DNA of 64,000 bases from an uncultured Candidatus Poseidoniales archaeon (GTDB taxonomy: Archaea; Thermoplasmatota; Poseidoniia; Poseidoniales; Thalassarchaeaceae), in assembly GCA_964401115.1 (NCBI GenBank), contig CAYNXD010000052.1, forward strand, positions 14-64,013. Reading direction: 5' to 3'. Position 1 is the first letter of the stretch; every line of letters begins with the position of its first letter. Both the position numbers and the translations under genes were made by a program. This document shows, piece by piece, positions 5,472 through 47,642 of this stretch. The notes below the pieces were generated by a model. The model was not told the DNA's origin, made no database searches, and was given only the letters and a program-made list of their open reading frames with translations.

Positions 5472-7643
5472 ATGACCGGTGAAGGTCGAATGGCTCTGCT
5501 CAAAGATGCGATGGTCGGACAATGGCGTTCGATGGGGGGTATGGCAGGTATGTTCATTGGTACAATTTTGCTTGCAATTTACATTCAACCATTTTGGGAT
5601 CGGCCCGAATCTAGGGCTTTTGGGGAAGCGGGAACAACAAAAGTAGGGTTGATTGGATTAGAGTTTCTTCTTATTCTAATTTTTACTGGTGTGATTATCT
5701 GGCTTGCTAAACGGGGATTGCAGGTAATTATCAAATGGGCAGTGTTAATCATTCTATGGATTTCACTATCTTATTGTCTAATTCCACTATCTTCCTACGC
5801 TCTTGACACCCCCCAACCGACTGTAGAATTCAGAACTGAAGAACATTCCAGCTATGATTTCCACTTTACAGACTTAGATGCTAGTAGTTTCATTGTTGAT
5901 AACCAAACGCACTTGATTAAGTATAGCGAAGCAAGTGGAATTGATAGTGGCGTACAAGCAAACCAAATTTGGTCATGGCCTCTTGATATGGGCAATCAAT
6001 CATTCTCGGCACACCCAATTACTATTGTTGATAATATTGATTCTTACATATATTGTGACCAAGTTCGTTGGGTGAAATTAGATAAAAATGATGGAAGCGT
6101 CATTTCAACTCACGATGTAAATTGTAATGCAGGTTTTTCTACTAGTGAATATGACTGGGGAATAATTGATACTCTGCTTCAAAAAATTGATCCATTCCAC
6201 CCAGATGTTCCAAATCACTCATGGACATACAAACTTCCTGAAGAATTTCTTGGAAAAGATTTCTTGAGAGGTGTTCTACTCAGTGATGAGGAAATGTTGC
6301 TTGTTTCAGATGATTGGGCTGGTATCATCGAAATACCTGATGGACCACACAACCTAGATCGAGGTGATACAGTAAATGTAACTGTAAAGTGGGAAGTAAT
6401 TCCTCCAAATGGAGAGTTATTCTCTACATCAGCATGGGGATATTCGCCTTGGAGTAATCAAAATTGGTTGTCAGAAAACCCACCAAGTGAAAGGCTATTG
6501 ATGCTAGGTACCACAAATGGGGACCTCAATGGCTATCTTTGGGATGGAAATGAAATGGAGGAGGAAGTTCGTATCAAATTCAATGAGAGAGATGCATTTG
6601 ATGCGGAAATACAAGGGATTCTATTAGCCGATGATCAGAGAGATGGTCGTGTAGATTTATGGGTTGCTTCCGGAGGAACAACAAGGATGTTTTCGGGTTG
6701 GACTATGGTTGAGTCTCTAAGTATTGAAGGACCTTTTGATACCGGCCCAATAAACATGGTACTACATACAATAGATGCACCGAATTGGGATGAGTTGGGA
6801 ATAGAAGATGGGGTCCTAACCTCCTATAGCATTAATTCATCTCAGAGTGCAATAATTGCAACTCCAGTCAATGAACCAGCATATATTCTACAAGATTCAA
6901 CAGGATATTGGATACCTATTTACTGGTCACAGATTATTGCGATGATTGCAGCTACCGGGTTGATGGTTGCTCTAACAATTAGGCCTGAATGGTATGTAGT
7001 AAATACTACTGGAATACTCACAGGAGCCGGAGTAATTACAATTATTGGGGTAAGTTTTGTCCCAACTTTGATGATAATTTTCATGGTAATAACCGCATTC
7101 TATGATTGGTATGCGGTTTACAAATCAAAACATATGCTAGATCTGGCTGATACTATGATTGGATTAAAACTCCCCATTCTTTTAGTTGCACCACAAGATA
7201 AAGAATACTCGTTCCTAGAGGAAGGAAATGATACAATGAGTAGGATGGATGATGCACCAGTTGTACTTTCAGAATCTAGCCAAGGCGACTCATCCGAGAT
7301 ATCTGTCGCAGCCCCACCTCCACACATACCAAAGAAAAGTGGAGGGGATGCCCTTTTCATGGGACTTGGAGACGTAATCTTCCCTGGAATGTTGGTAATT
7401 TCAGCTCTAACTTTCTTACCAGGGGATGGAACAATATTAGGAATTAGTGACCCTATGTTTGTTGCAATCGGGACACTAATTGGTGGTTTAATGGGGTATA
7501 CAATTCTAATGAGTTATGTTGCTATGGGGAAACCTCAAGCAGGATTACCACTACTCAATGGAGGTAGTATTCTAGGGTACTTAATTTCCGGAATAATAGC
7601 AGTTGGTTCTGCTGCTATTTCATTTGGAATAACTATTTTTTGA
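5472..7643 (+). CDS. presenilin / signal-peptide-peptidase-like (A22) intramembrane aspartyl protease with large N-terminal ectodomain insertion
   Basis: YD motif in TM (ITAFYDWYAVYKSKHML), long acidic cytoplasmic loop, then GxGD motif FMGLGDVIFPGMLV (SPP-like GLGDIV.PG), then QAGLPLL in the PAL position. N-terminal 3-4 TM helices plus ~330-aa hydrophilic insert. Confidence 0.65.
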   Translation: MTGEGRMALLKDAMVGQWRSMGGMAGMFIGTILLAIYIQPFWDRPESRAFGEAGTTKVGLIGLEFLLILIFTGVIIWLAKRGLQVIIKWAVLIILWISLSYCLIPLSSYALDTPQPTVEFRTEEHSSYDFHFTDLDASSFIVDNQTHLIKYSEASGIDSGVQANQIWSWPLDMGNQSFSAHPITIVDNIDSYIYCDQVRWVKLDKNDGSVISTHDVNCNAGFSTSEYDWGIIDTLLQKIDPFHPDVPNHSWTYKLPEEFLGKDFLRGVLLSDEEMLLVSDDWAGIIEIPDGPHNLDRGDTVNVTVKWEVIPPNGELFSTSAWGYSPWSNQNWLSENPPSERLLMLGTTNGDLNGYLWDGNEMEEEVRIKFNERDAFDAEIQGILLADDQRDGRVDLWVASGGTTRMFSGWTMVESLSIEGPFDTGPINMVLHTIDAPNWDELGIEDGVLTSYSINSSQSAIIATPVNEPAYILQDSTGYWIPIYWSQIIAMIAATGLMVALTIRPEWYVVNTTGILTGAGVITIIGVSFVPTLMIIFMVITAFYDWYAVYKSKHMLDLADTMIGLKLPILLVAPQDKEYSFLEEGNDTMSRMDDAPVVLSESSQGDSSEISVAAPPPHIPKKSGGDALFMGLGDVIFPGMLVISALTFLPGDGTILGISDPMFVAIGTLIGGLMGYTILMSYVAMGKPQAGLPLLNGGSILGYLISGIIAVGSAAISFGITIF

Positions 7644-7686: not shown

Positions 7687-8970
7687 ATGTTAGGCATCAA
7701 TATGTTCAGAGAGCACGCAGATATCATCCGTGCTGATCACGATAAACGTGGGCTACCTCATGACCAAATTGAAGAAGTGATTAGTCTAGATAATGATTGG
7801 AAAAAGGCCCGCTACGATGCAGACCAATTAAGAAGAGTAAGAAATAAGGCGGCAAGGGGAATTGCGGATGCAAAGAAGGCTGGAAATGATGAAAAAATGC
7901 GAGACATACTAGCAGAAGTTGCATCCCTTGGAGAGCAAATAGATGCCCTTGGAGTCGATGCAGATAATTTAGAGAGAAGTAGGGATGCATTGAGAATGAA
8001 AATACCGAATATTCTTCACGAAAGTGTTCCTATAGGTGATAATGATGAGGGAAATACCTTACACAGCAAACATGGGAACAAAAGGGACTATACTTTCGAA
8101 CCAAAGACACACAATCAATTAATTGATGAAAACAAATGGGTAGACTTACCAAGAGCTGCTAAGATTGCTGGTAGTCGGTTCTATTTTCTGAAAGGGGATT
8201 TAGCTAGAATGGAATTGGCATTACAACAGTATGCAGTTGATTTCTTGACTGATAGAGGATATACCTTCGTTCAACCACCTGTAATGATGAATCGCACTGC
8301 ATACGAAGGTGTAACCGATTTAGCCGATTTTGAGACCGTCATGTATAATGTTCAACCTGAAGGATTCTACACAATCGCAACCAGCGAGCACCCCCTGACT
8401 GCTATGTTCATGGACGAAGTCATGGAACCATCGATGTTACCAATGAAGATGGTAGGGGTTTCACCGTGTTTCAGAAGAGAAGTTGGAGCACATGGTCAAT
8501 CTGATAAAGGAATATGGCGAGTTCACCAATTCACCAAGATCGAACAAATAATTATCAGCAAACCCGAAGACTCTTGGGAATTACATGAAGAGTTGTTATC
8601 AAATTGCATTGAGTTATGGAACTCACTGGATCTTCATTATGAAGTTGTTAATATCTGTACAGGTGATATGGGCACTGTCGCATCAAAAAAGTATGACTTA
8701 GAGGCATGGTTACCTGGTGTAGGTACCTACAAGGAAGTCGTGTCTTGTTCAAATTGCACCGATTATCAAGCTAATAGACTAAAAATGAGATTTCGTACCT
8801 CTGATGGAAATGAATCTGTTCACACTCTGAATTCTACTGCCGTCGCTACTAGTAGAGCATTGGTGGCAATTATTGAACAGAATCAAACAGAAAATGGAGA
8901 AGTGGAAATTCCTCAGGTATTACAAACCTACATGCAGGGGCAAAAAACATTGCAATCTTGCAATTGGTAA
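7687..8970 (+). CDS. serS: seryl-tRNA synthetase
   Basis: N-terminal coiled-coil arm typical of SerRS; class II motifs FRREVGAHGQSDKGIWRVHQF; SD-like GGAGGTGA 7 nt upstream of ATG. Confidence 0.85.
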   Translation: MLGINMFREHADIIRADHDKRGLPHDQIEEVISLDNDWKKARYDADQLRRVRNKAARGIADAKKAGNDEKMRDILAEVASLGEQIDALGVDADNLERSRDALRMKIPNILHESVPIGDNDEGNTLHSKHGNKRDYTFEPKTHNQLIDENKWVDLPRAAKIAGSRFYFLKGDLARMELALQQYAVDFLTDRGYTFVQPPVMMNRTAYEGVTDLADFETVMYNVQPEGFYTIATSEHPLTAMFMDEVMEPSMLPMKMVGVSPCFRREVGAHGQSDKGIWRVHQFTKIEQIIISKPEDSWELHEELLSNCIELWNSLDLHYEVVNICTGDMGTVASKKYDLEAWLPGVGTYKEVVSCSNCTDYQANRLKMRFRTSDGNESVHTLNSTAVATSRALVAIIEQNQTENGEVEIPQVLQTYMQGQKTLQSCNW

Positions 8971-8987
8971 ATTAATTTTTCAATTGC

Positions 8988-9497
8988 TTATTCTGACTCT
9001 TCTATTTCAATCAAAATTGCTCCCTGATTCACTTGAGTTCCTACCTCGCAGTGAATTGTAGTTACAACCCCATCCACTGGAGAGCAAATTCTATTCTCCA
9101 TTTTCATAGCCTCAAGAATTAGTAGAGTTTGTCCTGCATTAACTGATTCTCCAACTGAAGATAATAGTGATAGAATCTTACCTGGCATTGGTGAGGTTAA
9201 TCCACCTGATTGTTCAAATGTACTTTGTGCGCCAGCTTCCACAACTGATACTCTTGATGTATGTCCGTTGTGATGAATCCACCATACATCGCCAACTTTT
9301 ACGAGAACTATATTTTCATCCCCTTCTCCTCTGTTGAGAGTTATTTCCTCATTTATGCCAGTAGTAGAGATGTTCCACTCTTCTACATTAACTGGCTCTC
9401 CATCAACAGAAACTCGCAAAGCAGTATATCCAACATCTGATTGTACTGCAGCAACCGTCCATTTAGAATCATCTTGATGATTAATGAAATCCTTCAT
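8988..9497 (-). CDS. biotin carboxyl carrier protein (biotinyl domain) of acyl-CoA carboxylase
   Basis: Biotin attachment motif EAMKMEN near C-terminus. Confidence 0.8.
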   Translation of the reverse strand: MKDFINHQDDSKWTVAAVQSDVGYTALRVSVDGEPVNVEEWNISTTGINEEITLNRGEGDENIVLVKVGDVWWIHHNGHTSRVSVVEAGAQSTFEQSGGLTSPMPGKILSLLSSVGESVNAGQTLLILEAMKMENRICSPVDGVVTTIHCEVGTQVNQGAILIEIEESE

Positions 9498-11053: not shown

Positions 11054-11953
11054 TCACTCCTCATTCCAATTTGGCGAGCGCTTCTCTAGGAACGAGGCAA
11101 GGCCTTCTTGACCCTCTTCAGAACCACGCATCGCGCTTGTCTTGTCAAGAGTCCATGTCCGCAACTCTTCGTCAGTACCGGACCACCTGTCAAATGTGAG
11201 TGTTAGTTTCTTAGCCTCTGCAACCGCCATTGGTCCAGTCGTCAATACTTCATCAATTACCTTTTGGATTTCTCCTTCACTTACAGGGAAGGGCCTGTCA
11301 TCTTCCACCCAATAGGAATTGATGAGACCAACATGCTTTGCCTCAGCCTCACCTATTCGGCCTGCTAACATTGAAAGACGACGAAATTCGGCACTACCAA
11401 CTTTCCTGTAAACGTAAGGCCCAATGACTGCAGGTAAGATACCTAACTTTCCTTCAGACAATGCTATTTTGATATGTTGTCCTGAACCAATAACGTGATC
11501 GAGGCAGGCAATAAGACCAACCCCCCCTCCGAGAGCAACCCCCTGAACCTTGCCTATTGTGAAACATGGGTGGGACCAGAGGCTGCTGAACAACCTATCA
11601 AGTCTTTCCGAATCAGCACGGTTCTCTTCCGGACTCTTTGCACCGGCATCCCGCATCATATTGATGTCCGCGCCTGCACAGAAATGTTTGCCTGCCCCCC
11701 TCAATACTATGACCCTGAAATAAGGTTGTCCAGATGCATCTTTGAGATTTCCACGCTCACCAACTGAACGCTCTCTAGTCCAATCCAATATAGAGATGAT
11801 TTCACTAATGAGTTGAATATTTAGTGCATTATACACATCTTCACGCTTTAGTGTCAAGTGACCAATTGGCCCCTCAATTCTAAGAGAGCAAAGACTCGTT
11901 TCTGGCTTCGAATCTCCAATTGCATAATTTGACATCTCAATTGCTCCTTTCAC
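11054..11953 (-). CDS. enoyl-CoA hydratase/isomerase (crotonase) family, possibly methylglutaconyl-CoA hydratase
   Basis: Crotonase oxyanion-hole motif [17 protein letters not shown]; 4-bp overlap with upstream carboxyltransferase suggests co-translation. Confidence 0.7.
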
Positions 11954-23446: not shown

Positions 23447-25846
23447 ATGGCTGATGATACGATTGACCCTTTTGATCTATCCAAAGCGATATCTGGCGCC
23501 GCTATTGGAAGGTTAGACCCCACCATTTCTTGTTTCCGTTTGAACGCCGATTATGCCCCTGCTGGTGACCAAAATCAAGCAATTGAAAAAATAATTTCTC
23601 AATTGCAAAATTCACAAGAACGTGCAGTATTGTTAGGAGTAACAGGTTCAGGTAAAACATTCGCCATGGCCCATGTTATTGAGCAACTAAACATCCCCAC
23701 TCTAATTCTTAGCCATAACAAAACATTAGCTAGGCAATTGTGGCAAGAAATGTCTTCACTTTTTCCAGAAAATGCTGTTGAATATTTCGTTAGTCATTAC
23801 GATTACTATCAACCAGAAGCATACCTCCCTAAACGCGATTTGTACATTGATAAAGAGATGCAAATGAATGAAAGAATCGAGCAAGAAAGATTTGCTACTG
23901 TTGCATCGCTCGTCTCTCGACCCGATGTAATAGCAGTCGGAACCGTTTCATCAATATATGGTTTAAATCCACCAGAAACTTTTCTCAAACAGCATGCAAG
24001 AGTGCATGTTGGTCAAGCTATAGAACCATTGGATTTAGTTAAACAACTTGTTGAACTTCAATACCAAAGAGTGACGGGCGAAATTGGTCGTGGCGAAATA
24101 CGTTGTAGAGGTGAAGTTGTTGATGTTTGGATGCCAAGCAGAGATGATCCACTTAGGATTTGTTTTGACTTTGATGGAATTACTAGAATAGATGTATGTG
24201 AAGCAGTGTCATGGGAAACGATAGACGAATTAGACGAGGCATGGATCCACCCTAAAGAATTCTTTATGACCAGCCCAGAACGATTTCGTCAAGCGATGGA
24301 AGATATTGCATTTGAATTGAGTGAAAGAACACATGTACTCGAAAGTGAAGGAAAGGAAATGGAAGCACATAGATTAGAAACCCGCACAAATTTTGATTTA
24401 GAAATGCTATCTGAAACTGGCCATTGCAAAGCAATAGAAAATTATTCTATGCATTTTGACGGGAGAACATATGGAGAGCGCCCCTTCTGCCTTCTAGATT
24501 TCTTAGCTGCTTCAGCAAAGCAATTTCATGGAGATGAAAAGAAATTCCTTGTCATCATGGATGAAAGCCATGTTACATTACCTCAACTAAAAGGGATGTA
24601 TGCCGGAGATAAAGCTCGTAAAGACTCGTTAATTGAACACGGTTTTAGGCTACCTTCGGCAGCCGATAATAGGCCATTAATCATCAATGAATTTCAGAAA
24701 TTGGTACCTCAGATGATATATGTTTCAGCAACACCGGGTGAGAGAGAACTGCGTCATCTTGCAGAGGTAACTGAACAAGAAATACCTAGGGAATTGTTGC
24801 ATGTTCCAGGCGGTGGTGGAGTATATGAGCCCGAGTTATTGAAACCTAAACGCTCTCCTAGTTTGCTAAATACATTGCAAAAAATCAAGGGGGTTGTGAG
24901 AATGGAAATACGACCCACCGGCTTACTAGACCCAAAACTAGAGGTTCGTCCAACTGAGGGACAAGTTCAAGATTTGCTAGATGAAATCAACGAATGTGTC
25001 AAAAATAATGAGAGGGTTTTGGTTACTGTCCTTACAATTAAATTCGCAGAAGAGGTATCTGAATATTTACAACGTACTGGAGTTAAATCCCATTATTTAC
25101 ACTCAGAAATTGATACCATTGAGAGATCTGAAATTATCAAGGCCTTGCGACTTGGCCATATAGATGTCATCGTAGGAATAAATTTGTTAAGAGAAGGACT
25201 TGATATCCCAGAGGTCTCTCTTGTTGCTATTTTTGATGCTGATAGACAAGGATTTTTGAGGAACGAACGTTCTTTACTGCAAACTATTGGAAGAGCATCA
25301 CGTAATGAAAATGGACGTGTTCTGATGTATGCCGATTCCATTTCAGATGCCATGAAATCTGCGATAACTCAAACAGTTGAAAGACGTGAAAGGCAACAAG
25401 ATTTCAATGTCAAAAATCAAATAACACCAAAAACTATCCAAAAAGCACTCCCAGTTATGGGAATTGAAACCGAACAATTGCTTTCGGGAACTTCTGGAAA
25501 GGGGAGCTCTGGTGGGAAAAGATTCGTTGGTGGTGCTTCAGGACAAATTGGAAAAATTAGAGATGAACTAGACATTGCCAAGAAATTTAATCTCGGGTCA
25601 GATGGTTGGGAATCAATTGATAACACCCTCTCTAGAGTGAGTCAGCCAGCGTGGGCTGAAGTTTCAGAATCCCATCTTTCACCTAATACGAATGATGATC
25701 TCAATACTGAACCAAATGTGGAACTAGATAGATTAGTCGTGAGGCTTCAAAAGGAAATGAAAATAGCTGCAAGCAGACTTGAGTTTGAGAAGGCTGCCCA
25801 ATTGAGAGATCGAATTTTCCAATTGGAAAATGCGGGAATGACCTAA
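23447..25846 (+). CDS. uvrB: excinuclease ABC subunit B
   Basis: GVTGSGKTF Walker A, YDYYQPEAY beta-hairpin region, helicase motifs, C-terminal UVR domain LQKEMKIAASRLEFEKAAQLRDRI; 799 aa, longer than typical. Confidence 0.9.
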   Translation: MADDTIDPFDLSKAISGAAIGRLDPTISCFRLNADYAPAGDQNQAIEKIISQLQNSQERAVLLGVTGSGKTFAMAHVIEQLNIPTLILSHNKTLARQLWQEMSSLFPENAVEYFVSHYDYYQPEAYLPKRDLYIDKEMQMNERIEQERFATVASLVSRPDVIAVGTVSSIYGLNPPETFLKQHARVHVGQAIEPLDLVKQLVELQYQRVTGEIGRGEIRCRGEVVDVWMPSRDDPLRICFDFDGITRIDVCEAVSWETIDELDEAWIHPKEFFMTSPERFRQAMEDIAFELSERTHVLESEGKEMEAHRLETRTNFDLEMLSETGHCKAIENYSMHFDGRTYGERPFCLLDFLAASAKQFHGDEKKFLVIMDESHVTLPQLKGMYAGDKARKDSLIEHGFRLPSAADNRPLIINEFQKLVPQMIYVSATPGERELRHLAEVTEQEIPRELLHVPGGGGVYEPELLKPKRSPSLLNTLQKIKGVVRMEIRPTGLLDPKLEVRPTEGQVQDLLDEINECVKNNERVLVTVLTIKFAEEVSEYLQRTGVKSHYLHSEIDTIERSEIIKALRLGHIDVIVGINLLREGLDIPEVSLVAIFDADRQGFLRNERSLLQTIGRASRNENGRVLMYADSISDAMKSAITQTVERRERQQDFNVKNQITPKTIQKALPVMGIETEQLLSGTSGKGSSGGKRFVGGASGQIGKIRDELDIAKKFNLGSDGWESIDNTLSRVSQPAWAEVSESHLSPNTNDDLNTEPNVELDRLVVRLQKEMKIAASRLEFEKAAQLRDRIFQLENAGMT

Positions 25847-25855
25847 ACTGATTAA

Positions 25856-26776
25856 TTGAAATCTGCGACCCATGTGAGGCAATACATGGGGAAGCGTCTT
25901 GAGATTGTAATAATGACTCGCGGCCCAGAGTTATACAGTACTACTAGATTAGCCGCAGCAACTCGCAGAGCTGGCCATGGAGTAAGTTATCTTAATCCAA
26001 CTAGGTGTACTATTGATCTTTCACCAGATGGCGCAACTGTACTATACAATGGAGAGAAGATTGTTCAACCAATGGACTGCATTGTTCCAAGAATTGGGGC
26101 TTCAATAACTCGTCATGGATTAACAATATTAAGACAGTTCCAAGCTGCTGGCATAACAACACTAAACCACAGTAACGGAATAGGTGCTAGCCGAGACAAA
26201 TTAAGAGCATTACAACGGTTTGCATCATCTGAATTACCAATTCCAAGAACTGCTTACGCTAGAGGCGCTGCCGATTTACACCATTGTATAGAGACGGTTG
26301 GTGGCACCCCTGTTGTTCTAAAATTATTAGAGGGCACCCAAGGAGTTGGGGTAATGCGTTGTGACACTGTTGCGAGTGCTGAATCTGTGATTGATGTATT
26401 GGCTAGATTGCATCAACCAATTATTGTTCAGGAATACATTGCTGAATCAAAAGGTTCCGACATCAGAGCTATTGTAGTTGGTGATAAAGTAGTTGCTGCT
26501 ATGCGCAGAACCGGAAAAAGTGAAGATTTTCGAAGTAATATCCACAGAGGGGGGACTGGCGAGAAGGTCGAGTTAGAGCCGGAAATAGAAAAAATCTGTA
26601 TCGATGCTTGTAAAGTTCTTCGACTACGGTTTGCAGGAGTGGATTTATTGGAGTCTAATCGTGGCCCACTACTAATGGAGGTTAATTCATCCCCTGGCCT
26701 AGAGGGGATTGAAAGGGCAACTGGAGTAGATATCGCAAATGAAGTGATTACTGAAATTGAACGGATGTGTTCCTGA
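25856..26776 (+). CDS. RimK-like ATP-grasp alpha-L-glutamate ligase
   Basis: RimK-like N-terminal RLEIVIMTRGPELYSTTRL and ATP-grasp core; possible alternative start at 25886 (MGKRLEIV). Confidence 0.6.
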   Translation: MKSATHVRQYMGKRLEIVIMTRGPELYSTTRLAAATRRAGHGVSYLNPTRCTIDLSPDGATVLYNGEKIVQPMDCIVPRIGASITRHGLTILRQFQAAGITTLNHSNGIGASRDKLRALQRFASSELPIPRTAYARGAADLHHCIETVGGTPVVLKLLEGTQGVGVMRCDTVASAESVIDVLARLHQPIIVQEYIAESKGSDIRAIVVGDKVVAAMRRTGKSEDFRSNIHRGGTGEKVELEPEIEKICIDACKVLRLRFAGVDLLESNRGPLLMEVNSSPGLEGIERATGVDIANEVITEIERMCS

Positions 26777-27832: not shown

Positions 27833-28522
27833 CTACGGTAATTGATGAGCAATGCTTTCCATCAAACCGATTCTAAATGGAACCACAGGGTGCCATCCGT
27901 TTAATCCAGCCTTTTGGCAAGCGGTATGAAGTGGGCCAAGGTTAGGCCTAGGTGGTGAAACTATTGGCTCGATATTAGGTTCAAAAATTTTCAAATTATC
28001 TAATTGAAAAGTCTTTGATTCCGCTGCTTTCACTCTTTTGAAAAGCATCTCTAATTCACTTGACATCGCTTCATGGCTCCAGCAACGCCTGCCACTAACA
28101 TCAATCACGCCATTCGGTAGATTAGCAAATAACACCGAAATCATATCTACTACATCGCGGACATGAATCCAGTACCTTGCATCACCTTGAGGTCTTTCCC
28201 CAATAGGGTTATTCAACCACAAAATTTGGTGTTCTATTTCCTTTGGCCCCCACCCCCCAGAACCACTAGGAATGTACAAGTCATGCAACACCAATTCACA
28301 ATGAACCTCACAAGGGTATGGATTACTTGTTGAGGGGCGGTTTACTAATTCACATTCTACTGCTGGACCTGAATGCCAGCAGACGATGTGGACGCCATCG
28401 GGCGAATCTGTATTGATTTCTATTCTCTCAAGTCTCTCTTTTAATGACAAAAAGAAACCATCTTCTTCTCCTTGAAGGGTTACCATATTTGGCATCGTCC
28501 CACCTCCCATGTACTTTGACAT
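27833..28522 (-). CDS. NAD-dependent epimerase/dehydratase-like protein lacking the N-terminal Rossmann motif (possibly degenerate)
   Basis: Segment GDARYWIHVRDVVDMI resembles the RDFIHVDDVV segment of extended SDR epimerases; no GxxGxxG upstream; tightly packed between neighbours. Confidence 0.4.
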   Translation of the reverse strand: MSKYMGGGTMPNMVTLQGEEDGFFLSLKERLERIEINTDSPDGVHIVCWHSGPAVECELVNRPSTSNPYPCEVHCELVLHDLYIPSGSGGWGPKEIEHQILWLNNPIGERPQGDARYWIHVRDVVDMISVLFANLPNGVIDVSGRRCWSHEAMSSELEMLFKRVKAAESKTFQLDNLKIFEPNIEPIVSPPRPNLGPLHTACQKAGLNGWHPVVPFRIGLMESIAHQLP

Positions 28523-28536
28523 ATTAATTTACAATA

Positions 28537-30084
28537 TTATTGAGGATTTGGACCCCTACGTTCAGGAGAACCCATGTAGCCCACAGTATATTCAATCAAA
28601 CAACACCTAACTAAGTCAATTACCAAATCTATCTCATCGGAAGTTATACCAAAATGAGGTGTGAAACGTAGTGCATTCTTTCCTCCATGAATTACTCCTA
28701 ATCCATTCAATCTGCACCACTCTTCAACACAAACAAAGCCAAATTCATTCGCTGGAGCCACAACTGGTAGAGTTTTGGGGTCCAGTTCTATGCAGAGAAG
28801 TAAACCTGAACCCTGAACTAAAGTGATTTCATTAGGGAATTCTTTCTGTAATTTTTCAAGCTTTGAGAGAAATTCTTCACCTTTTCCAATAATGTTAGCA
28901 CGTAATTCAGGGGTTACCTTGCTGAGTACTTCTATTGCTGTTTCAAGCGCCCGAGGGTTAGTAGTCATGGTATTCCCATAAATTCCAACAACATACAATT
29001 CCGCAGCACGTTCTGATAATCCTACAACAGAAAGTGGATATTGTCCTGCATTGAGTGCTTTTGACCAAGTCTCTAAGTCAGGTACATCGGCGGATTGAAA
29101 TCCAGGATAATCAACAATTGAAAGGCACCCTTTACCACGAAACCCAGCCTGTATGGAATCAACTAACAGCATACTTCCATGTTCAGAAGTTAACCGTCTC
29201 GCTTCATCATAAAATGCTCGAGTTACAGATTGACCAGGAGACCCTTCCCCTTGTACTGGCTCTATGGCGACTAATTCAATGAAAAAGTTCTCTTCCTCTG
29301 CTCTTGAAAATGCCGACTGCAAATCTCCAACATTGTTGGGTTCAACGATAATGATGTTATCACGCTCACGGAAAGTTGCAAGATTATCTATGTATCCCTT
29401 TTTACAAGAATCTGAGATTGATGCTGGTCGTTGTGTTCTTCCATGAAATCCTTGCTTAAGCGCAATTATCTTTATCGGTTTTCCTTCATGACGGCCACCT
29501 GGACCAGTCATATTATTGGAATTTACATCAGCAATTCGCATACCTAATGTTACTGATTCAGATCCACTATTTACGCAAATGAATTTTGAAAAAGGGCAAG
29601 CACCGCGAGAATGGCCGACCTCCCTACGCAATGCATCTGCTAACTTTTTCTGGCTAAATGAAGCCGTCATCACATTTGCCATTACCCAATTTTTTGACAT
29701 TGCATTAATTACATTATCAGGACCATGTCCGCTTCCAAGCATCCCGTACCCTCCATTGTCGTGCAGAACTGCCCCGTGAGAAGTGATTATCCAAGGGCCA
29801 CGAGCAGCTATTGCAACATATGGATTAACGGTTGCAGCTGGATAGAAATTAATGAAATCAGATTGTAATGTTCGAATTAGTTCTGATTCATCCATCATTA
29901 ATAATTCAGGACCTAACTGCGCTGAATATTCTTTATGATTTTTTGATGCTTCTGAAATGGCGTCTACTAGATTCTGATCTGATGCTACAAAACGAGTGAT
30001 AACTACGTCCATTAAACCAATGGTTTGTCGTGGCCCTGAATTCATCCGAATTTCAAATAACAAATCCAACAACGGGTCTTGCAT
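28537..30084 (-). CDS. class III pyridoxal-phosphate-dependent aminotransferase with N-terminal extension
   Basis: GFHGRT motif and LLVDSIQAGFRGKG (cf. DEVQTGFGRTG) typical of class III aminotransferases; 515 aa. Confidence 0.65.
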   Translation of the reverse strand: MQDPLLDLLFEIRMNSGPRQTIGLMDVVITRFVASDQNLVDAISEASKNHKEYSAQLGPELLMMDESELIRTLQSDFINFYPAATVNPYVAIAARGPWIITSHGAVLHDNGGYGMLGSGHGPDNVINAMSKNWVMANVMTASFSQKKLADALRREVGHSRGACPFSKFICVNSGSESVTLGMRIADVNSNNMTGPGGRHEGKPIKIIALKQGFHGRTQRPASISDSCKKGYIDNLATFRERDNIIIVEPNNVGDLQSAFSRAEEENFFIELVAIEPVQGEGSPGQSVTRAFYDEARRLTSEHGSMLLVDSIQAGFRGKGCLSIVDYPGFQSADVPDLETWSKALNAGQYPLSVVGLSERAAELYVVGIYGNTMTTNPRALETAIEVLSKVTPELRANIIGKGEEFLSKLEKLQKEFPNEITLVQGSGLLLCIELDPKTLPVVAPANEFGFVCVEEWCRLNGLGVIHGGKNALRFTPHFGITSDEIDLVIDLVRCCLIEYTVGYMGSPERRGPNPQ

Positions 30085-30641
30085 ATCTTCGGGAGGAGGA
30101 ATACACTCATCAATTTATGCCGTAACTACGCCTGTATTTTTGTTTCCAAAACAAGGCCCTAATCACAGAATAAATCAATTGAAAAATTAAATTTTCAATT
30201 GGAATATTATCATATCTATCTGTATATCAATCATCAATCCATAAAGATCTGATTGTTGAGTTAGCTGAATAATTCCAGCGAGAATATTTTAAGTTGTAAA
30301 ATAAGGATATATGAACAAATTGTAATCGAAAAAGATTGTTCGGCGAAATTCAAACTGTAATCTAAATATTATCCGTCATTCCAATTGAAATGTAATTACG
30401 GATAATCTGAGAAATTTAGATTTATATTGAAACATAATTCATATCTGGCGTTTGATTTCAATTGAAAAACGATTATTTTAGTAATTCCATATTTTTCACC
30501 ATGCAATTGAATAATCAGCGATTATCCGTCTTTTTCAATTGAACTTTAACACATTGAATTTTACATATAGTTAATATACTGACTTGTGACGTAGTCCGAT
30601 GACCGAGTTATGGGATGCACGGGAATAGAGAGGGATAAAAA
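30085..30641. promoter_or_regulatory. 555-bp AT-rich divergent intergenic region with six CAATTG palindromes and two composite ATTATCCGTC-N4/5-CAATTG elements plus an inverted CGGATAAT arm
   Basis: CAATTG at 30176, 30196, 30382, 30459, 30504, 30536; ATTATCCGTC at 30368-30377 and 30521-30530; CGGATAAT at 30399-30406. Largest non-coding stretch in the window. Confidence 0.6.
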
Positions 30642-31253
30642 ATGGCAGATGATTCATTCATGATACAAGAGTTACTACAGCGCGAGGTGTTCGTTAAACA
30701 AACGCGCGTAGGTGTGATAGTAGGGGAGAGATTTCACCCCAACGAAGAACGAGTACAATCTCTGAGGCTACAAGTAGATTCAGAAATAGCTGACGAGTTC
30801 ATGAGAAAACCGGCCGAATTTGCGCCTTTGTCAAAAGAACTCCTGCACAGTATTCAAGCTGATGGAACTATCAAATTATCAAAATCTATGCGTGAGTTGC
30901 AACGCAGGTGGCGCAACACTGTCAGAATAGATGAGAAGTTATACGCACCAGATGAGTTACTAGATCGGGCAGTACTCGACACCCAAGGAGAAGATCTTGG
31001 GGAGGTTGTTGGCTTGGTGAAAATTAAGAGGACTTATCGAGGGATTGAAGTCAAAGCAAGATCAATGCTCCGACGAAGATATCGTTTGGAAAATGAAACA
31101 ATCAATATTCCAGTTCAGTTTCTCGCGAGAACTAGCCCACGCCTTGATGAGATAATCCTCTCACGGACGTTTGAGAAGTTAATGGGGCTACCATCATACT
31201 TGAAATTAAATTCTGGTGAAATACTAGAAGATGATTTTGAAGAAGAAGAATGA
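30642..31253 (+). CDS. hypothetical protein, possibly tandem PRC-barrel-like, acidic C-terminus
   Basis: Two segments with PRC-barrel-like pattern (VGVIVGERF...; DTQGEDLGEVVGLVKI); weak assignment. Confidence 0.3.
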   Translation: MADDSFMIQELLQREVFVKQTRVGVIVGERFHPNEERVQSLRLQVDSEIADEFMRKPAEFAPLSKELLHSIQADGTIKLSKSMRELQRRWRNTVRIDEKLYAPDELLDRAVLDTQGEDLGEVVGLVKIKRTYRGIEVKARSMLRRRYRLENETINIPVQFLARTSPRLDEIILSRTFEKLMGLPSYLKLNSGEILEDDFEEEE

Positions 31254-36882: not shown

Positions 36883-37887
36883 ATGGACCCGTACAAAATG
36901 GTAATTTCATGCACCAACCAAAAGGGTGGATGTGCAAAAACTACCACTGCAGTTAACGTGGCCACTGCATTGGCAGAAGGTGATCCCTCAAGGGGCATTG
37001 AACCTTCCAAAGTACTGCTGGTTGATCTGGATCCACAAGGGAGTGCATCAACCTCATTTGGAATAAACAAAAGCAAACTAGAACGTACCGTGTATGATTT
37101 ACTGATGAACGACCTAGGTGAAGAATTACCAATTATCAAAGATTATCTAATAGGGCCAGAAATAATTACAGATTCAATGAGAGAAACTTGGATGAAGGCA
37201 AATGATGGAAAGAAACTCTCTAAGGCAAGGAAAAAATCATTGAAAGTTGAAAACCTGTGGCTTCTACCATCAAACATCCAATTATCAGGGGCTGAAATCG
37301 AATTAGCTACCAGAATTGGACGAGAAACTAGATTGAAAGAAGGTCTAGCATCTGCAATAAACGAGTTCGACTATATCATTATCGACACACCTCCGAGTTT
37401 GGGGTTGCTGACTATCAACGCACTAGCTGCATCTAATTGGGTTATGATTCCAGTTCAGACCGAATGGTATGCATTGGAGGGGATGAGTCAATTGATTAAT
37501 TCAATAAAGTTGGTTCAGATGAGAATAAACCCTAATCTCAAATTATTCGGTATCGCTTTGACGATGTATCAGCTGAGGAATAATCTAAGCAAAATAGTTT
37601 CCAAAGAAGTACGTGGATCAGCTTTCCATAAGGAAGTCTTTAGCACCATGATCCCTAGAAATTCTGACATCGCAGAAGCACCAATGGAAGGTGCTCCGGT
37701 CGTTTTGTTAAAAAAAGGAAATAGAACAAATAAAGGATCTCAAGCCTATTGGTCATTAGCCAAAGAAGTTTCTGATAGAGTAAAGAAAATGAGACATAAG
37801 TATGGAGTTTATGAAAAAAATCATTTAAAAATCCACAAATTAAACCAATCTAACGAAGACGATGCTTTGTCCGAACAACTAGAATAA
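36883..37887 (+). CDS. ParA/Soj-family partition ATPase (deviant Walker A) with internal insertion
   Basis: Deviant Walker A NQKGGCAKTTTAVNVATALA, LLVDLDPQGSAS, IIIDTPPSLG; ~50-aa insert relative to canonical Soj. Confidence 0.75.
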   Translation: MDPYKMVISCTNQKGGCAKTTTAVNVATALAEGDPSRGIEPSKVLLVDLDPQGSASTSFGINKSKLERTVYDLLMNDLGEELPIIKDYLIGPEIITDSMRETWMKANDGKKLSKARKKSLKVENLWLLPSNIQLSGAEIELATRIGRETRLKEGLASAINEFDYIIIDTPPSLGLLTINALAASNWVMIPVQTEWYALEGMSQLINSIKLVQMRINPNLKLFGIALTMYQLRNNLSKIVSKEVRGSAFHKEVFSTMIPRNSDIAEAPMEGAPVVLLKKGNRTNKGSQAYWSLAKEVSDRVKKMRHKYGVYEKNHLKIHKLNQSNEDDALSEQLE

Positions 37888-37900
37888 TCATACTAATGAG

Positions 37901-38203
37901 TTGTCAACTCACCGTCAAACTTCTATAGATGTCCTAAACCAACAGGGTTTAGGTGAGTTAATGGGTTCTCCAGATATGACATCAGTTAGTGTGAGTTTTG
38001 AAGTACGAAGGCAGTTAAATTCTATGCGGGCATTAGAAAATTACCAAAGCGTAGATGATCTTCTTCAACATCTTTTGAAGACCTATAGATTGAATAAACT
38101 CAACAGAGACAGTGAATCTCTTCAGGATTCCTTGAAATCGTTAAATGACGTGGATGTTAATGTTCTAATCTCTAAACTCGACCTATCGCCCTTCAAGGAG
38201 TGA
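37901..38203 (+). CDS. small ribbon-helix-helix (CopG/Arc-like) protein, candidate ParA partner
   Basis: Predicted beta-strand VSVSFEV followed by two helices (RRQLNSMRAL; SVDDLLQHLL); immediately downstream of parA and overlapping the next small ORF by 4 nt. Confidence 0.4.
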   Translation: MSTHRQTSIDVLNQQGLGELMGSPDMTSVSVSFEVRRQLNSMRALENYQSVDDLLQHLLKTYRLNKLNRDSESLQDSLKSLNDVDVNVLISKLDLSPFKE

Positions 38204-38460
38204 ATCAAATGAAGGGACAAGCGCCGTCATACTGGATTACTGCTGAGAACCTCGTTCGTGGCTTATTTGATGACATGAGTGATGAGCAGACCCTACTCAA
38301 ATTAGCATCTTGTAACGTAATAGAATTGCATGCGGGGAATAAAGTTTGGAATTCTTTTCTGTGGTTGCTTGTCAACCATATGAAGAGAGAAGGCGTACCT
38401 ATTCTTTCTGGTAAAGATTTGGGCGATTTACGAAGTCGCCTACCGATAGTTTTCCATTGA
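38200..38460 (+). CDS. hypothetical small protein (GTG start) co-transcribed with ParA/RHH pair
   Basis: Overlapping stop/start with the upstream ORF; no recognisable motif. Confidence 0.3.
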   Translation: MNQMKGQAPSYWITAENLVRGLFDDMSDEQTLLKLASCNVIELHAGNKVWNSFLWLLVNHMKREGVPILSGKDLGDLRSRLPIVFH

Positions 38461-38463
38461 AAA

Positions 38464-43657: not shown

Positions 43658-43835
43658 TTCTGCTAATTTCGATTCTGTCTCAGTCAGGGTCCCATCCCCT
43701 TGGAGCGCATCGCTCCTATTTCGTTACTGCAACTCTCTTCCTATTTGAGTGGGCAGGGTGGCATTATCCGTCAAACGTCCATTATTACACCCCTAGGGTG
43801 ATTCCCCAGAACTCTAGTTTGAAAGATGATATAAA

Positions 43836-47502: not shown

Positions 47503-47642
47503 AATTTGACCTATTGCATAACCTGTTTGAATGTGACTGTCAAACGTGATTGCAATGAGGTTTTAATTTATCAATTGGAAAAACGATTTTTATATTGGAA
47601 AATTGAAAATATTCATTCATGATTTTACATTGACCGGATTAG

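What the first reader, a model, noticed from the sequence alone, without database searches (positions are those of the whole stretch)
30085..30641. 555-bp non-coding region dense in CAATTG palindromes and a composite ATTATCCGTC-N4/5-CAATTG element
This is the largest intergenic stretch in an otherwise compact window. It holds six CAATTG copies within 366 bp, against an expectation of about 0.1-0.2 for this base composition. It also holds two direct copies of ATTATCCGTC, each followed 4-5 bp later by CAATTG, and an inverted CGGATAAT arm forming ATTATCCG-N21-CGGATAAT around the first copy. The pattern looks like an array of operator sites for a dimeric DNA-binding protein. Alternatively it could be a structured non-coding RNA or a replication or partition locus. 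It sits between the divergent aminotransferase gene and the hypothetical gene at 30642.
Basis: seen in the sequence. Interest (0 to 1): 0.7.

Follow-up and report, generated by a model that had tools for sequence, protein, structure and literature searches.

The report
Conserved protein-binding array before archaeal division gene
This non-coding stretch, from an uncultured Marine Group II ocean archaeon, is a strongly conserved array of two palindromic DNA motifs locked in register with the promoter of a cell-division-type gene, so it is most likely a docking platform for an unknown transcription regulator rather than an RNA gene or a replication origin.

Summary
Six CAATTG copies lie in a 557-bp, 30%-GC spacer (0.31 expected by chance), with two ATTATCCGTC-N4/5-CAATTG composites. 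The inverted arm is spaced N23, not N21.

The window comes from a Marine Group II archaeon (Poseidoniales, MGIIb). CAATTG is the core of a 12-bp palindrome, TTYCAATTGRAA (A box). ATTATCCGTC belongs to a second palindromic motif, GATWATC plus flank (B box).

- **Conservation.** The array is kept across MGIIb. Non-coding identity is 72% where synonymous sites are saturated at 29%.
- **Spacing.** The two promoter-proximal A boxes are exactly 32 bp apart in 50 of 50 loci, and 32-37 bp from a TATA-like box.
- **Linkage.** The array stays with the downstream gene when the divergent neighbour changes.
- **The gene.** It encodes a tandem PRC-barrel protein whose closest solved structures are the cell-division proteins CdpB1/CdpB2.
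- **Other sites.** A boxes and 20/21-bp CAATTG pairs also occur at other gene boundaries in the window.

Best reading (confidence 0.6): an upstream operator array for a dimeric, cooperatively binding regulator. I found no support for an origin, a centromere, a dif site or a structured RNA. The regulator itself is unknown.

The parts
30085..30641 (.). Whole divergent intergenic control region (557 bp, 30% GC).
   Evidence: The orthologous spacers measure 255-340 bp in most MGIIb clades and 557-615 bp in the window's clade.
28537..30084 (-). Class-III aminotransferase gene. It is the first gene of the divergent unit and is followed by the 229-aa gene at 27833-28522.
   Evidence: Pfam PF00202, E = 4.5e-37. 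NCBIfam matches to the acetylornithine/ornithine aminotransferase family are all below cutoff.
30106..30120 (-). Invariant block CTCATCAATTTATGC. It is inferred to be the TATA-like promoter element of the aminotransferase unit, whose transcript would then have little or no leader.
   Evidence: The block is invariant in 8 of 8 sequences of the window clade. A related CATCAAYATTCTC block is conserved in other clades. The promoter role is inference.
30173..30204 (.). Distal pair of A boxes, AATCAATTGAAA (30173-30184) and TTTCAATTGGAA (30193-30204), with centres 20 bp apart. Together they form a roughly 30-bp extended palindrome.
   Evidence: I3; PWM scores 16.8 and 20.2 bits. The same 20-bp pair lies next to the divergent gene in the window clade and in the L232/L277/L292/L318 clade, where that gene is a different one.
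30368..30406 (.). 39-bp imperfect palindrome: B box ATTATCCGTC (30368-30377), A box TTCCAATTGAAA (30379-30390) and inverted B arm CGGATAAT (30399-30406).
   Evidence: I4, D7. The B arms are invariant or nearly so in the window clade. The A box lies about 260 nt upstream of the ATG, a position shared with the intermediate clade.
30421..30432 (.). Degenerate A-like box TTTATATTGAAA.
   Evidence: 2 mismatches. The core ATATTGR is conserved in the window clade.
30456..30467 (.). Perfect 12-bp palindrome TTTCAATTGAAA, an A box about 183 nt upstream of the ATG. It is followed by GATTAT at 30471-30476.
   Evidence: I18; 0 mismatches; invariant. It lies 45-47 bp from A1 in both the window and intermediate clades.
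30501..30512 (.). A1, the distal member of the universal 32-bp pair (ATGCAATTGAAT).
   Evidence: The spacing from A1 to A2 is exactly 32 bp in 50 of 50 loci that have both copies intact.
30511..30530 (.). B boxes between A1 and A2: ATAATCAG (30511-30518, inverted sense) and GATTATCCGTC (30520-30530).
   Evidence: The composite ATTATCMGYC-N4/5-CAATTG occurs in 20 loci, all of them in this spacer in the window and intermediate clades. In the compact clade the order is instead CAATTG-R-ATTATCAGTC. In the L232 clade the box reads ATTATACGACAT.
30533..30544 (.). A2, the promoter-proximal A box (TTTCAATTGAAC).
   Evidence: It starts 32 bp upstream of the TATA-like hexamer in 32 loci of the compact clade and 36-37 bp upstream in the window and intermediate clades.
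30563..30582 (+). Invariant block CATATAGTTAATATACTGAC, inferred to be the BRE/TATA core promoter of the PRC-barrel gene. The predicted transcription start is near 30601.
   Evidence: The block is invariant in the window clade. The homologous block in other clades reads GRATAGTATAAGTGC. Both the promoter role and the start site are inference.
30601..30641 (+). Predicted 5' leader, with the near-invariant GGGATGC (30612-30618) and a Shine-Dalgarno-like GAGAGGGA (30628-30635).
   Evidence: Evidence for a hairpin is weak.
30642..31253 (+). Gene for a 203-aa tandem PRC-barrel protein (CdpB-like), the gene the array stays with.
   Evidence: Pfam PRC, E = 0.023. The AlphaFold2 model has mean pLDDT 86.5. 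The best Foldseek hits are CdpB1/CdpB2 in entry 8qzo, E about 6e-8. The family is narrow: 57 representative clusters.
25799..25858 (.). A second A-box cluster outside the finding, at the UvrB 3' end just upstream of RimK. CAATTG is at 25799 and 25820 (21 bp apart). TAATTG is at about 25853 (33 bp further on, counted by hand from the sequence).
   Evidence: 20.9 bits. A CAATTG overlapping or adjoining the UvrB stop codon is kept in most clades.
8956..8991 (.). CAATTG-N14-CAATTG pair at the convergent ends of the seryl-tRNA synthetase and biotin-carrier genes. Its format matches the distal pair in the finding.
47567..47582 (.). A box TTTATCAATTGGAAAA with degenerate copies downstream of it, about 72 nt upstream of the P-type ATPase start codon.
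   Evidence: 18.2 bits.
7616..7631 (.). A-like box TATTTCATTTGGAATA, about 63 nt upstream of the seryl-tRNA synthetase start codon.
   Evidence: 15.4 bits.

Best explanation
The spacer is a conserved multi-site control region for the divergent promoters of a CdpB-like tandem PRC-barrel gene (30642, + strand) and the aminotransferase unit (30084, - strand).

**Shown.**
- There are two palindromic motif classes. The A box is TTYCAATTGRAA. The B box is GATWATC with a CMGYC flank.
- The array is conserved across Thalassarchaeaceae (MGIIb) far beyond the neutral expectation.
- Two A boxes are always exactly 32 bp apart and 32-37 bp from a TATA-like block.
- The array follows the PRC-barrel gene when the divergent neighbour changes.
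- A boxes recur at other gene boundaries.

**Inferred.**
- A dimeric DNA-binding protein occupies each A box.
- Neighbouring dimers, two or three helical turns apart (20-21 or 32-33 bp), lie on one face of the DNA and bind cooperatively.
- With centres about 62 and 94 nt upstream of the predicted transcription start, A2 and A1 would act as an upstream activating or regulatory sequence for TBP/TFB recruitment. The adjacent B box would be bound by a second factor, or by an extension of the same complex.
- The distal 20-bp pair would serve the divergent promoter in the same way.
- Because the controlled gene resembles the cell-division proteins CdpB1/CdpB2, the regulator may be a cell-cycle or growth regulator, analogous to CdrS in Haloferax. 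Its identity is unknown.
For: **Symmetry.** The A-box PWM from 49 non-identical spacers is a 12-bp dyad. One perfect copy is at 30456-30467.

**Conservation.** A and B boxes occur at 9.36 per kb in the spacer against 0.056 per kb in 554 kb of flanking DNA from 69 loci. The 133-bp core is 72% identical in locus pairs whose four-fold degenerate sites are saturated at 29%. The array persists in genomes from 35% to 60% GC.

**Geometry.** A1 to A2 is 32 bp in 50 of 50 loci. A2 to the TATA-like hexamer is 32 bp in 32 loci and 36-37 bp in 13. Further sites at +46 and +78 bp are shared by two clades.

**Linkage.**
- MGIIa loci keep the aminotransferase but have a different upstream gene and no array.
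- In the L232/L277/L292/L318 clade the divergent neighbour is a homologue of the 229-aa gene instead. The whole array, including the distal 20-bp pair, is still there.
- In a metagenome scan all 19 genuine hits sit directly upstream of the PRC-barrel gene.

**Regulon hint.**
- A-box PWM hits of at least 12 bits number 15, against 3.3 +/- 1.7 expected. Six of the 10 hits outside the spacer fall in the 8.5% of the window that is intergenic or within 30 bp of a gene end (P = 6e-5).
- CAATTG pairs 20 or 21 bp apart occur 6 times, against 0.15 expected. No other palindromic hexamer tested does this.
- A CAATTG at the UvrB stop codon, upstream of RimK, is conserved in most clades.

**Target gene.** The best structural matches are CdpB1/CdpB2. 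In Haloferax the RHH regulator CdrS binds a symmetric motif 41-110 nt upstream of transcription starts, including 72 nt upstream of the start of cdpB1, HVO_1691 (PMC8406309). The bioRxiv paper 10.1101/2023.03.28.534520 notes this link and reports that PRC-barrel genes are often near translation-system genes.
Against: - No cognate regulator is identified, and no transcription-factor gene is adjacent.
- The TATA box, transcription start and leader are predictions. No transcript data were available.
- Two A-box sites (8956/8976 and 38449) lie at convergent gene ends, where no promoter is expected. The binding protein may therefore be architectural or boundary-forming rather than a classical activator or repressor.
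- Three of the six 20/21-bp pairs are in frame in coding sequence, so protein periodicity could contribute to them.
- Only 64 kb of one genome could be scanned for further sites.
- Distant homologues of the PRC-barrel gene (L082/L083, L086) lack the array, so it is a lineage-specific addition.
Confidence: 0.6

Rival explanations
1. The array binds an architectural or nucleoid-associated protein that marks the boundaries of transcription units, acting as an insulator, a roadblock or a DNA-looping site. The A-box palindromes would be its genome-wide sites and this spacer its densest cluster. It would not be a gene-specific regulator.
For: - A-box hits are concentrated at gene boundaries of all kinds, including two convergent junctions that have no promoter (8956/8976 and 38449).
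- A 26-bp paired format recurs: CAATTG-N14/15-CAATTG, 6 times against 0.15 expected.
- Spacings of 32, 46 and 78 bp in the array would allow wrapping or looping.
Against: - The strict 32-bp register with the TATA-like block in every clade, and the fact that the array follows one gene, fit promoter-specific control better.
- B boxes are essentially confined to this spacer.
- Only two convergent-junction sites are known, and their conservation could not be tested.
Confidence: 0.13
2. It is a chromosomal replication origin. The A boxes would be diverged mini-ORB elements bound by Orc1/Cdc6, arranged as inverted copies around AT-rich DNA that unwinds.
For: - TTCCAATTGAAA (30379-30390, and on the opposite strand at 30193-30204) matches the ORB core TTCCAGTGGAAA at 10 of 12 positions. 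The ORB consensus is taken from PMC4153887.
- The spacer is long, 30% GC and very strongly conserved, as origins are.
- MGII genomes do encode Cdc6/Orc1 (PMC3914693).
Against: - There is no G-string (GGGGT) next to any A box.
- No Orc1/Cdc6 gene lies in the 64-kb window.
- After correcting for gene strand, composition at four-fold sites does not switch at the locus (side coefficients 0.002 +/- 0.020 for GC and 0.017 +/- 0.012 for TA).
- In the window and intermediate clades the stretch between A1 and A2 holds a GC-containing B box rather than easily melted DNA.
- The sites are phase-locked to a TATA-like box.
- Equivalent sites occur at other gene boundaries.
- Thermoplasmatota relatives use canonical ORBs next to orc1.
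Confidence: 0.07
3. It is a centromere-like partition site for the ParA-type ATPase encoded 6.2 kb downstream (36883-37887) and its two small partner proteins.
For: - A ParA-family ATPase followed by two small ORFs of 100 and 86 aa is conserved in the same neighbourhood across clades.
- Partition centromeres are arrays of short repeats.
- One A-like box (38449-38464) overlaps the stop codon of the second small ORF.
Against: - The array is separated from parA by nine protein-coding genes and a tRNA-Ile gene, and it is locked to the promoter of a different gene.
- The small ORFs have no significant DNA-binding domain match.
- A boxes also occur at unrelated gene boundaries.
Confidence: 0.05
4. 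The conserved sequence is, or contains, a structured non-coding RNA or a cis-regulatory leader RNA.
For: The predicted leader has a near-invariant GGGATGC flanked by short, clade-specific complementary segments: GGAG/CTCC, GGAGAA/TTCTCC and CCG/CGG.
Against: - There is no Rfam match at gathering threshold or at E up to 10.
- RNAalifold finds no consensus structure.
- Helices between a sequence's own two flanks are barely longer than helices between flanks taken from different sequences (4.46 against 4.03 pairs).
- The A/B array lies upstream of both predicted promoters. Its repeats are self-complementary palindromes, so they cannot separate RNA pairing from DNA dyad symmetry.
Confidence: 0.04

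Closest known systems
CdrS (ribbon-helix-helix) binding sites upstream of cell-division genes in Haloferax volcanii (PMC8406309)
   Same: - A symmetric DNA motif lies 41-110 nt upstream of transcription starts at a small set of genes. One of them is the PRC-barrel cell-division gene cdpB1 (HVO_1691), where the motif is 72 nt upstream.
- Here the predicted centres of A2, the B box and A1 lie about 62, 76 and 94 nt upstream of the start of a CdpB-like PRC-barrel gene. Further sites lie at other promoters.
   Different: - The Haloferax motif sequence could not be retrieved for comparison.
- No CdrS homologue was looked for or found here.
- Haloferax has single sites. This locus has six A boxes plus several B-box copies.
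- The transcription start here is predicted, not mapped.
Multi-site operators of archaeal Lrp/AsnC-type (feast/famine) regulators such as FL11 or Ss-LrpB (recalled from memory, not tested)
   Same: Both are arrays of AT-rich palindromes built from TTTCA/TGAAA half-sites, spaced by whole helical turns. This lets an oligomer of dimers bind cooperatively and bend or wrap the promoter DNA. An amino-acid-metabolism gene (the aminotransferase) is transcribed divergently.
   Different: - The half-sites are abutted (TTTCA-AT-TGAAA) rather than separated as in TGAAA-WWW-TTTCA.
- No Lrp/AsnC gene is adjacent.
- The array follows the PRC-barrel gene, not the aminotransferase.
Archaeal oriC origin recognition boxes (ORB and mini-ORB)
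   Same: Both show a dyad core in inverted copies within a long, AT-rich, highly conserved spacer. TTCCAATTGAAA matches TTCCAGTGGAAA at 10 of 12 positions.
   Different: - No G-string.
- No neighbouring orc1/cdc6.
- No compositional switch.
- The sites are perfect palindromes, so they lack polarity.
- Fixed register with a TATA-like box.
- Copies at other gene boundaries.
Bacterial REP/BIME palindromic units at gene ends
   Same: Palindromic pairs of about 26 bp sit right at the 3' ends of genes, including at a convergent junction (8956-8991).
   Different: - The copies in this spacer are positionally conserved across an order and lie upstream of promoters.
- There is no sign of mobility or of a RAYT-type transposase.
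- Several copies overlap coding sequence.

Membership tests
Transcription-factor operator / upstream regulatory array | Dyad-symmetric sites suited to a dimeric DNA-binding protein | tested here: met
   The A-box PWM is the 12-bp palindrome TTYCAATTGRAA, built from 49 non-identical spacers. A perfect copy lies at 30456-30467. The B-box core GATWATC is also palindromic.
Transcription-factor operator / upstream regulatory array | Sites conserved in orthologous promoters beyond the neutral expectation | tested here: met
   The core is 72% identical where four-fold sites are 29% identical. Box density is 9.36 per kb in the spacer against 0.056 per kb outside it.
Transcription-factor operator / upstream regulatory array | Fixed position and helical phasing relative to the core promoter | tested here: met
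   A1 to A2 is 32 bp in 50 of 50 loci. A2 to the TATA-like hexamer is 32 bp or 36-37 bp. That the block is a TATA box is itself inferred.
Transcription-factor operator / upstream regulatory array | Further sites at other promoters (a regulon) | tested here: inconclusive
   There are 10 extra PWM hits in the window, 6 of them in gene-boundary zones (P = 6e-5). One of them, at the UvrB/RimK junction, is conserved across clades. However, only 64 kb could be scanned, and two sites lie at convergent gene ends.
Transcription-factor operator / upstream regulatory array | Specific binding by a cognate regulator, with an effect on transcription | not testable with these tools
   The organism is uncultured and no ChIP, DAP-seq or transcript data were available.
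CdrS-type cell-division regulon | Target genes include a CdpB-type PRC-barrel cell-division gene | tested here: inconclusive
   Structural similarity to CdpB1/CdpB2 is strong by E-value and probability (E about 6e-8, probability 1.0). TM-scores are only 0.29-0.39, consistent with a different arrangement of the two domains. A role in cell division was not tested.
CdrS-type cell-division regulon | Motif matches the CdrS motif, and a CdrS homologue is present | not tested
   The motif sequence is absent from the text and supplements held. No search for a CdrS homologue was possible with the remaining caps.
Archaeal oriC | ORB elements: the dyad core plus a G-rich string (consensus CTTCCAGTGGAAACGAAAGGGGT) | tested here: not met
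   The best matches have 2 mismatches in the core, and none has an adjacent GGGGT.
Archaeal oriC | Adjacency to an orc1/cdc6 gene (usual but not universal) | tested here: not met
   Pfam scans of the window's ORFs of at least 110 aa (all but the 2119-aa ORF and one overlapping ORF) found no Orc1/Cdc6-type protein.
Archaeal oriC | Strand-composition switch at the origin | tested here: not met
   A regression of four-fold-site skew on gene strand and on side of the locus gives side coefficients of 0.002 +/- 0.020 (GC) and 0.017 +/- 0.012 (TA). This test is weak, because many archaea show little skew.
Archaeal oriC | Replication initiates there | not testable with these tools
   This needs marker-frequency analysis on a closed genome or on metagenome coverage.
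ParABS / SegAB-type centromere | Repeat array next to the partition operon and bound by its DNA-binding partner | tested here: not met
   The ParA-like gene starts 6.2 kb away, beyond nine protein-coding genes and a tRNA gene. Its small partner proteins have no significant DNA-binding domain hit. Binding itself is not testable here.
Structured non-coding RNA / riboswitch | A match to a known family, or covariation supporting a fold | tested here: not met
   No Rfam hit. No RNAalifold consensus structure. The helix test within the same sequence against across different sequences gave 4.46 against 4.03 pairs.
Xer/dif recombination site | Two 11-nt inverted arms around a 6-nt spacer (Thermococcales consensus WTKDSMTATAA-N6-TTATATSHMAA) | tested here: not met
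   In the window the B arms are 23 nt apart (30368-30406), or they are turned outward with a 3-nt gap (30511-30526). The dif consensus is from PMC4640148. No arrangement is shared by all clades.

The most novel reading that the evidence does not exclude
The array is the replication origin, or one of the origins, of Marine Group II archaeal chromosomes. It would use diverged, fully palindromic mini-ORBs (TTYCAATTGRAA) without a G-string, would not be linked to orc1/cdc6, and would be physically coupled to a cell-division gene.
Probability: 0.07. Interest if true: 0.75.

Novelty: new member of a known kind. Interest (0 to 1): 0.45.

Why it matters
Marine Group II archaea are among the most abundant archaea in the surface ocean, yet none has been cultured. 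Almost nothing is known about how they regulate genes or time cell division.

This locus offers a concrete and testable handle:
- a precisely defined pair of DNA motifs;
- a rigid, order-wide promoter architecture in front of a CdpB-like division gene;
- further candidate target sites.

Synthetic DNA carrying these motifs could be used to fish out the binding protein from expressed MGII regulators. The motif can also be scanned across MAGs to define a regulon, possibly a growth or cell-cycle regulon. If the minority reading were right and this is an origin, it would anchor coverage-based growth-rate estimates for this group.

Tried and rejected
- **Rfam.** A scan of the whole window at gathering threshold, and of the spacer at E up to 10, gave only the two tRNAs and three chance-level hits.
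- **Sigma-70 promoter and intrinsic-terminator scan.** It is not meaningful for an archaeon and found no terminators.
- **GC and AT skew.** Raw skew simply follows gene strand. After correction using four-fold sites there is no switch at the locus.
- **Canonical ORB search.** Only 2-mismatch hits, no more than chance across the window (15 against 8.9 expected).
- **Viral contigs.** CAATTGRATTATCAG gave at least 120 single hits; the 80 held for inspection had no second box in a matching arrangement and none resembled the array. GATTATCMGYCTTTTTCAATTG gave none. The array is therefore not seen on viruses or mobile elements in that collection.
- **dif/Xer reading of the B-box palindromes.** Rejected on architecture.
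- **Leader hairpin.** Covariation was not demonstrable.
- **Distant homologues of the PRC-barrel gene.** L082/L083 have a 123-bp spacer and L086 has a different gene context. Neither has the array, so they could not be used for footprinting.
- **CdrS motif sequence.** Not retrievable from the paper's text or supplements.
- **Literature.** Searches for CAATTG motifs in archaea and for MGII replication origins found nothing relevant.
Full report
**Source and setting.** The window is archaeal. It encodes deoxyhypusine synthase, L7Ae, S28e, L24e, aIF5B, aEF1A, a family-B DNA polymerase and UvrB. The aminotransferase protein is found exactly on one ENA metagenome scaffold of 190.7 kb. Its closest relatives in the genome collection are MAGs named Candidatus Thalassarchaeaceae or Poseidoniales, that is, Marine Group II (MGIIb). 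The finding is the spacer between a class-III aminotransferase gene (28537-30084, - strand) and a 203-aa gene (30642-31253, + strand). A tRNA-Ile gene and the PRPP-synthase, L7Ae, S28e, L24e, NDK and aIF5B genes follow.

**Checking the observation.** Dinucleotide-preserving shuffles of the 557-bp, 30%-GC spacer give a mean of 0.31 CAATTG, and none of 20,000 shuffles reached six. Two corrections apply:
- The inverted arm is ATTATCCG-N23-CGGATAAT, not N21.
- The window-wide excess of CAATTG (70 against 33 expected) is largely a codon effect. Nearly all coding copies read CAA-TTG or xCA-ATT-Gxx.

The claim that this is the largest non-coding stretch holds once the small genes in the other two long gaps are recognised.

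**Anatomy.** The hexamer is the core of a 12-bp palindrome, TTYCAATTGRAA, which I call the A box. The window has one perfect copy (30456-30467) and three copies with one mismatch in the spacer. It has only one other copy with at most one mismatch in 64 kb. ATTATCCGTC belongs to a second motif, the B box. Its core GATWATC is itself a palindrome, and its flank reads CMGYC. The first B copy, an A box and an inverted B arm together form a 39-bp palindrome (30368-30406).

**Comparative evidence.** I fetched eighty loci through the aminotransferase.
- Sixty-nine of them keep the pairing of the aminotransferase with the 203-aa gene.
- In those, A and B boxes occur at 9.36 per kb inside the spacer against 0.056 per kb in 554 kb outside it.
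- The array persists in genomes from 35% to 60% GC.
- Among locus pairs whose four-fold degenerate sites are saturated (29% identity), the 133-bp non-coding core is still 72% identical.
- The two promoter-proximal CAATTG copies are exactly 32 bp apart in 50 of 50 loci where both are intact, about 105 and 137 nt upstream of the start codon.
- The proximal one starts 32 bp (compact clade) or 36-37 bp (window and intermediate clades) upstream of a conserved TATA-like hexamer.
- The window clade and an intermediate clade share two further A boxes, 46 and 78 bp further upstream. The window clade adds a pair 20 bp apart next to the aminotransferase promoter.
In the compact clade the order is reversed (CAATTG-R-ATTATCAGTC).

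**Which gene owns the array.**
- MGIIa loci keep the aminotransferase but have a different upstream neighbour (a small RHH-like gene, by a weak Pfam hit, followed by an ORF I take from its translation to be a GTP cyclohydrolase I) and no array.
- A metagenome scan for CAATTGRA-N21-TTYCAATTG returned 120 rows. Nineteen have the 203-aa gene, and in all nineteen the match lies directly upstream of it. The rest are unrelated chance matches.
- Four of the nineteen (L232, L277, L292, L318) represent a clade in which the divergent neighbour is not the aminotransferase. It is instead a homologue of the window's 229-aa gene. The complete array is nevertheless present, including the distal 20-bp pair and a B-box variant, ATTATACGACAT.
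- L269, from the window clade, has a different aminotransferase paralogue and the same array.

The array therefore travels with the 203-aa gene. Very distant homologues of that gene lack the array, so it is an addition specific to this lineage.

**The controlled gene.** The 203-aa protein has only a weak Pfam PRC-barrel hit, and its family is narrow, with 57 representative clusters. An AlphaFold2 model built from 31 sequences is confident (mean pLDDT 86.5) and shows two beta-barrel repeats. Its best Foldseek matches among solved structures are the Archaeoglobus cell-division proteins CdpB1/CdpB2 (8qzo, E about 6e-8), followed by single PRC barrels. The literature offers a functional parallel:
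- In Haloferax the RHH regulator CdrS binds a symmetric motif 41-110 nt upstream of transcription starts at 18 sites. One of them lies 72 nt upstream of the start of the PRC-barrel gene HVO_1691, which is cdpB1 (PMC8406309).
- PRC-barrel genes are often found near translation-system genes (bioRxiv 10.1101/2023.03.28.534520), as this one is.

**The motif elsewhere in the window.**
- CAATTG pairs 20 or 21 bp apart occur six times, against 0.15 expected under random placement. None of 18 other palindromic hexamers shows any such pair.
- An A-box PWM gives 15 hits of at least 12 bits, against 3.3 +/- 1.7 under a first-order Markov null. Ten lie outside the spacer. Six of those ten fall in the 8.5% of sequence that is intergenic or within 30 bp of a gene end (P = 6e-5).
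- The boundary hits include sites about 63 nt upstream of the seryl-tRNA synthetase start and about 72 nt upstream of the P-type ATPase start.
- They also include a cluster at the UvrB 3' end upstream of RimK. There a CAATTG at or next to the stop codon is conserved in most clades.
- A further pair lies at a convergent junction (8956-8991).
- Three of the pairs are in frame within coding sequence, so part of this signal may reflect protein periodicity.
- B boxes are nearly confined to the spacer. One further exact ATTATCCGTC lies at 43763.

**Mechanism.** The following is shown: palindromic sites, order-wide purifying selection, spacings of whole helical turns, register with a TATA-like block, linkage to one gene, and recurrence at gene boundaries. 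The rest is inferred. The inferred model is this:
- A dimeric protein binds each A box.
- Dimers two or three helical turns apart bind cooperatively on one face of the DNA.
- A2 and A1, centred about 62 and 94 nt upstream of the predicted transcription start (near 30601), work as an upstream regulatory sequence. In archaea, sites upstream of the BRE/TATA elements are usually activating; this point rests on established knowledge and was not tested here.
- The B box is read by a second factor or by an extension of the same complex.
- The distal 20-bp pair serves the divergent promoter.

I put this model at 0.6.

**Rivals.**
- *Architectural or boundary protein (0.13).* This explains the sites at convergent junctions, but explains the register with the TATA-like box less well.
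- *Replication origin (0.07).* The A box matches the ORB core at 10 of 12 positions. Against this reading:
  - there is no G-string;
  - there is no orc1/cdc6 gene in 64 kb;
  - there is no switch in composition;
  - a GC-containing B box sits where the unwinding element would be;
  - copies occur elsewhere in the window.
- *ParA-linked centromere (0.05).* It is unlikely, given the 6.2-kb separation.
- *Structured RNA (0.04).* There is no Rfam hit and no demonstrable covariation.
- *dif site.* Rejected on architecture.

**Verdict.** It is an undescribed member of a familiar kind, a cis-regulatory operator array, in an ecologically important uncultured lineage. Interest is moderate (0.45).

Noticed in passing
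window 36883-38460: A ParA-family ATPase (334 aa, deviant Walker A motif) is followed by two small ORFs of unknown function (100 and 86 aa). This could be a chromosomal partition or positioning module. The gene order MoxR then ParA is conserved in L269, L227 and L285. The two small ORFs are confirmed only in L269; the other two loci end inside ParA.
   Followed up: partly
window 30601-30641 and orthologous leaders: The predicted 5' leader of the PRC-barrel gene carries a near-invariant GGGATGC (30612-30618), flanked by short complementary segments that differ between clades. In some clades an alternative helix would cover the Shine-Dalgarno-like sequence. Statistical support for a fold was weak.
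   Followed up: partly
window 8956-8991, 11917-11943, 21351-21377, 23580-23605, 25799-25825: Five CAATTG-N14/15-CAATTG pairs lie outside the finding; with the pair inside it there are six, against 0.15 expected. Some overlap conserved coding motifs of UvrB. One spans the 17-bp gap between two convergent genes.
   Followed up: partly
window 43763-43772: A third exact copy of ATTATCCGTC lies in the 178-bp spacer about 106 nt upstream of an 850-aa gene. That gene encodes a Glu/Arg-rich protein with no Pfam match and an apparently disordered tail, probably a coiled coil. No CAATTG is nearby.
   Followed up: no
window 47503-47642: The 29%-GC spacer upstream of the P-type ATPase / ArsR-type HTH / zinc-ribbon gene cluster holds a strong A box (47567-47582) and degenerate copies. 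It also holds a separate inverted repeat, GTTTGA-N9-TCAAAC, which could be the operator of the ArsR-type regulator.
   Followed up: no
window 47756-54115: A 2119-aa ORF on the - strand. It was not characterised.
   Followed up: no
loci L058, L069, L070, L076, L079 (MGIIa), upstream of the aminotransferase: In most MGIIa loci (not L067) the aminotransferase is preceded by a small gene for a ribbon-helix-helix-like protein (weak Pfam hit only) beginning MPKISLDMPAEL. An ORF I take from its translation to be a GTP cyclohydrolase I follows it. The spacer there carries a different conserved palindrome, around GTATTACTC...GAATACTTA.
   Followed up: no
window 19677-21740: The UbiD-like ORF continues about 230 aa beyond the end of its last Pfam domain and overlaps the UbiA gene start. 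This tail contains one of the CAATTG pairs (21351/21372), so the gene model here may be wrong.
   Followed up: no
window 27833-28522 and L232 1546-2379: The 229-aa gene downstream of the aminotransferase has no family match. It has a 277-aa homologue (29% identity) that becomes the direct divergent neighbour of the PRC-barrel gene in another clade. It is therefore the constant partner in the divergent transcription unit.
   Followed up: partly
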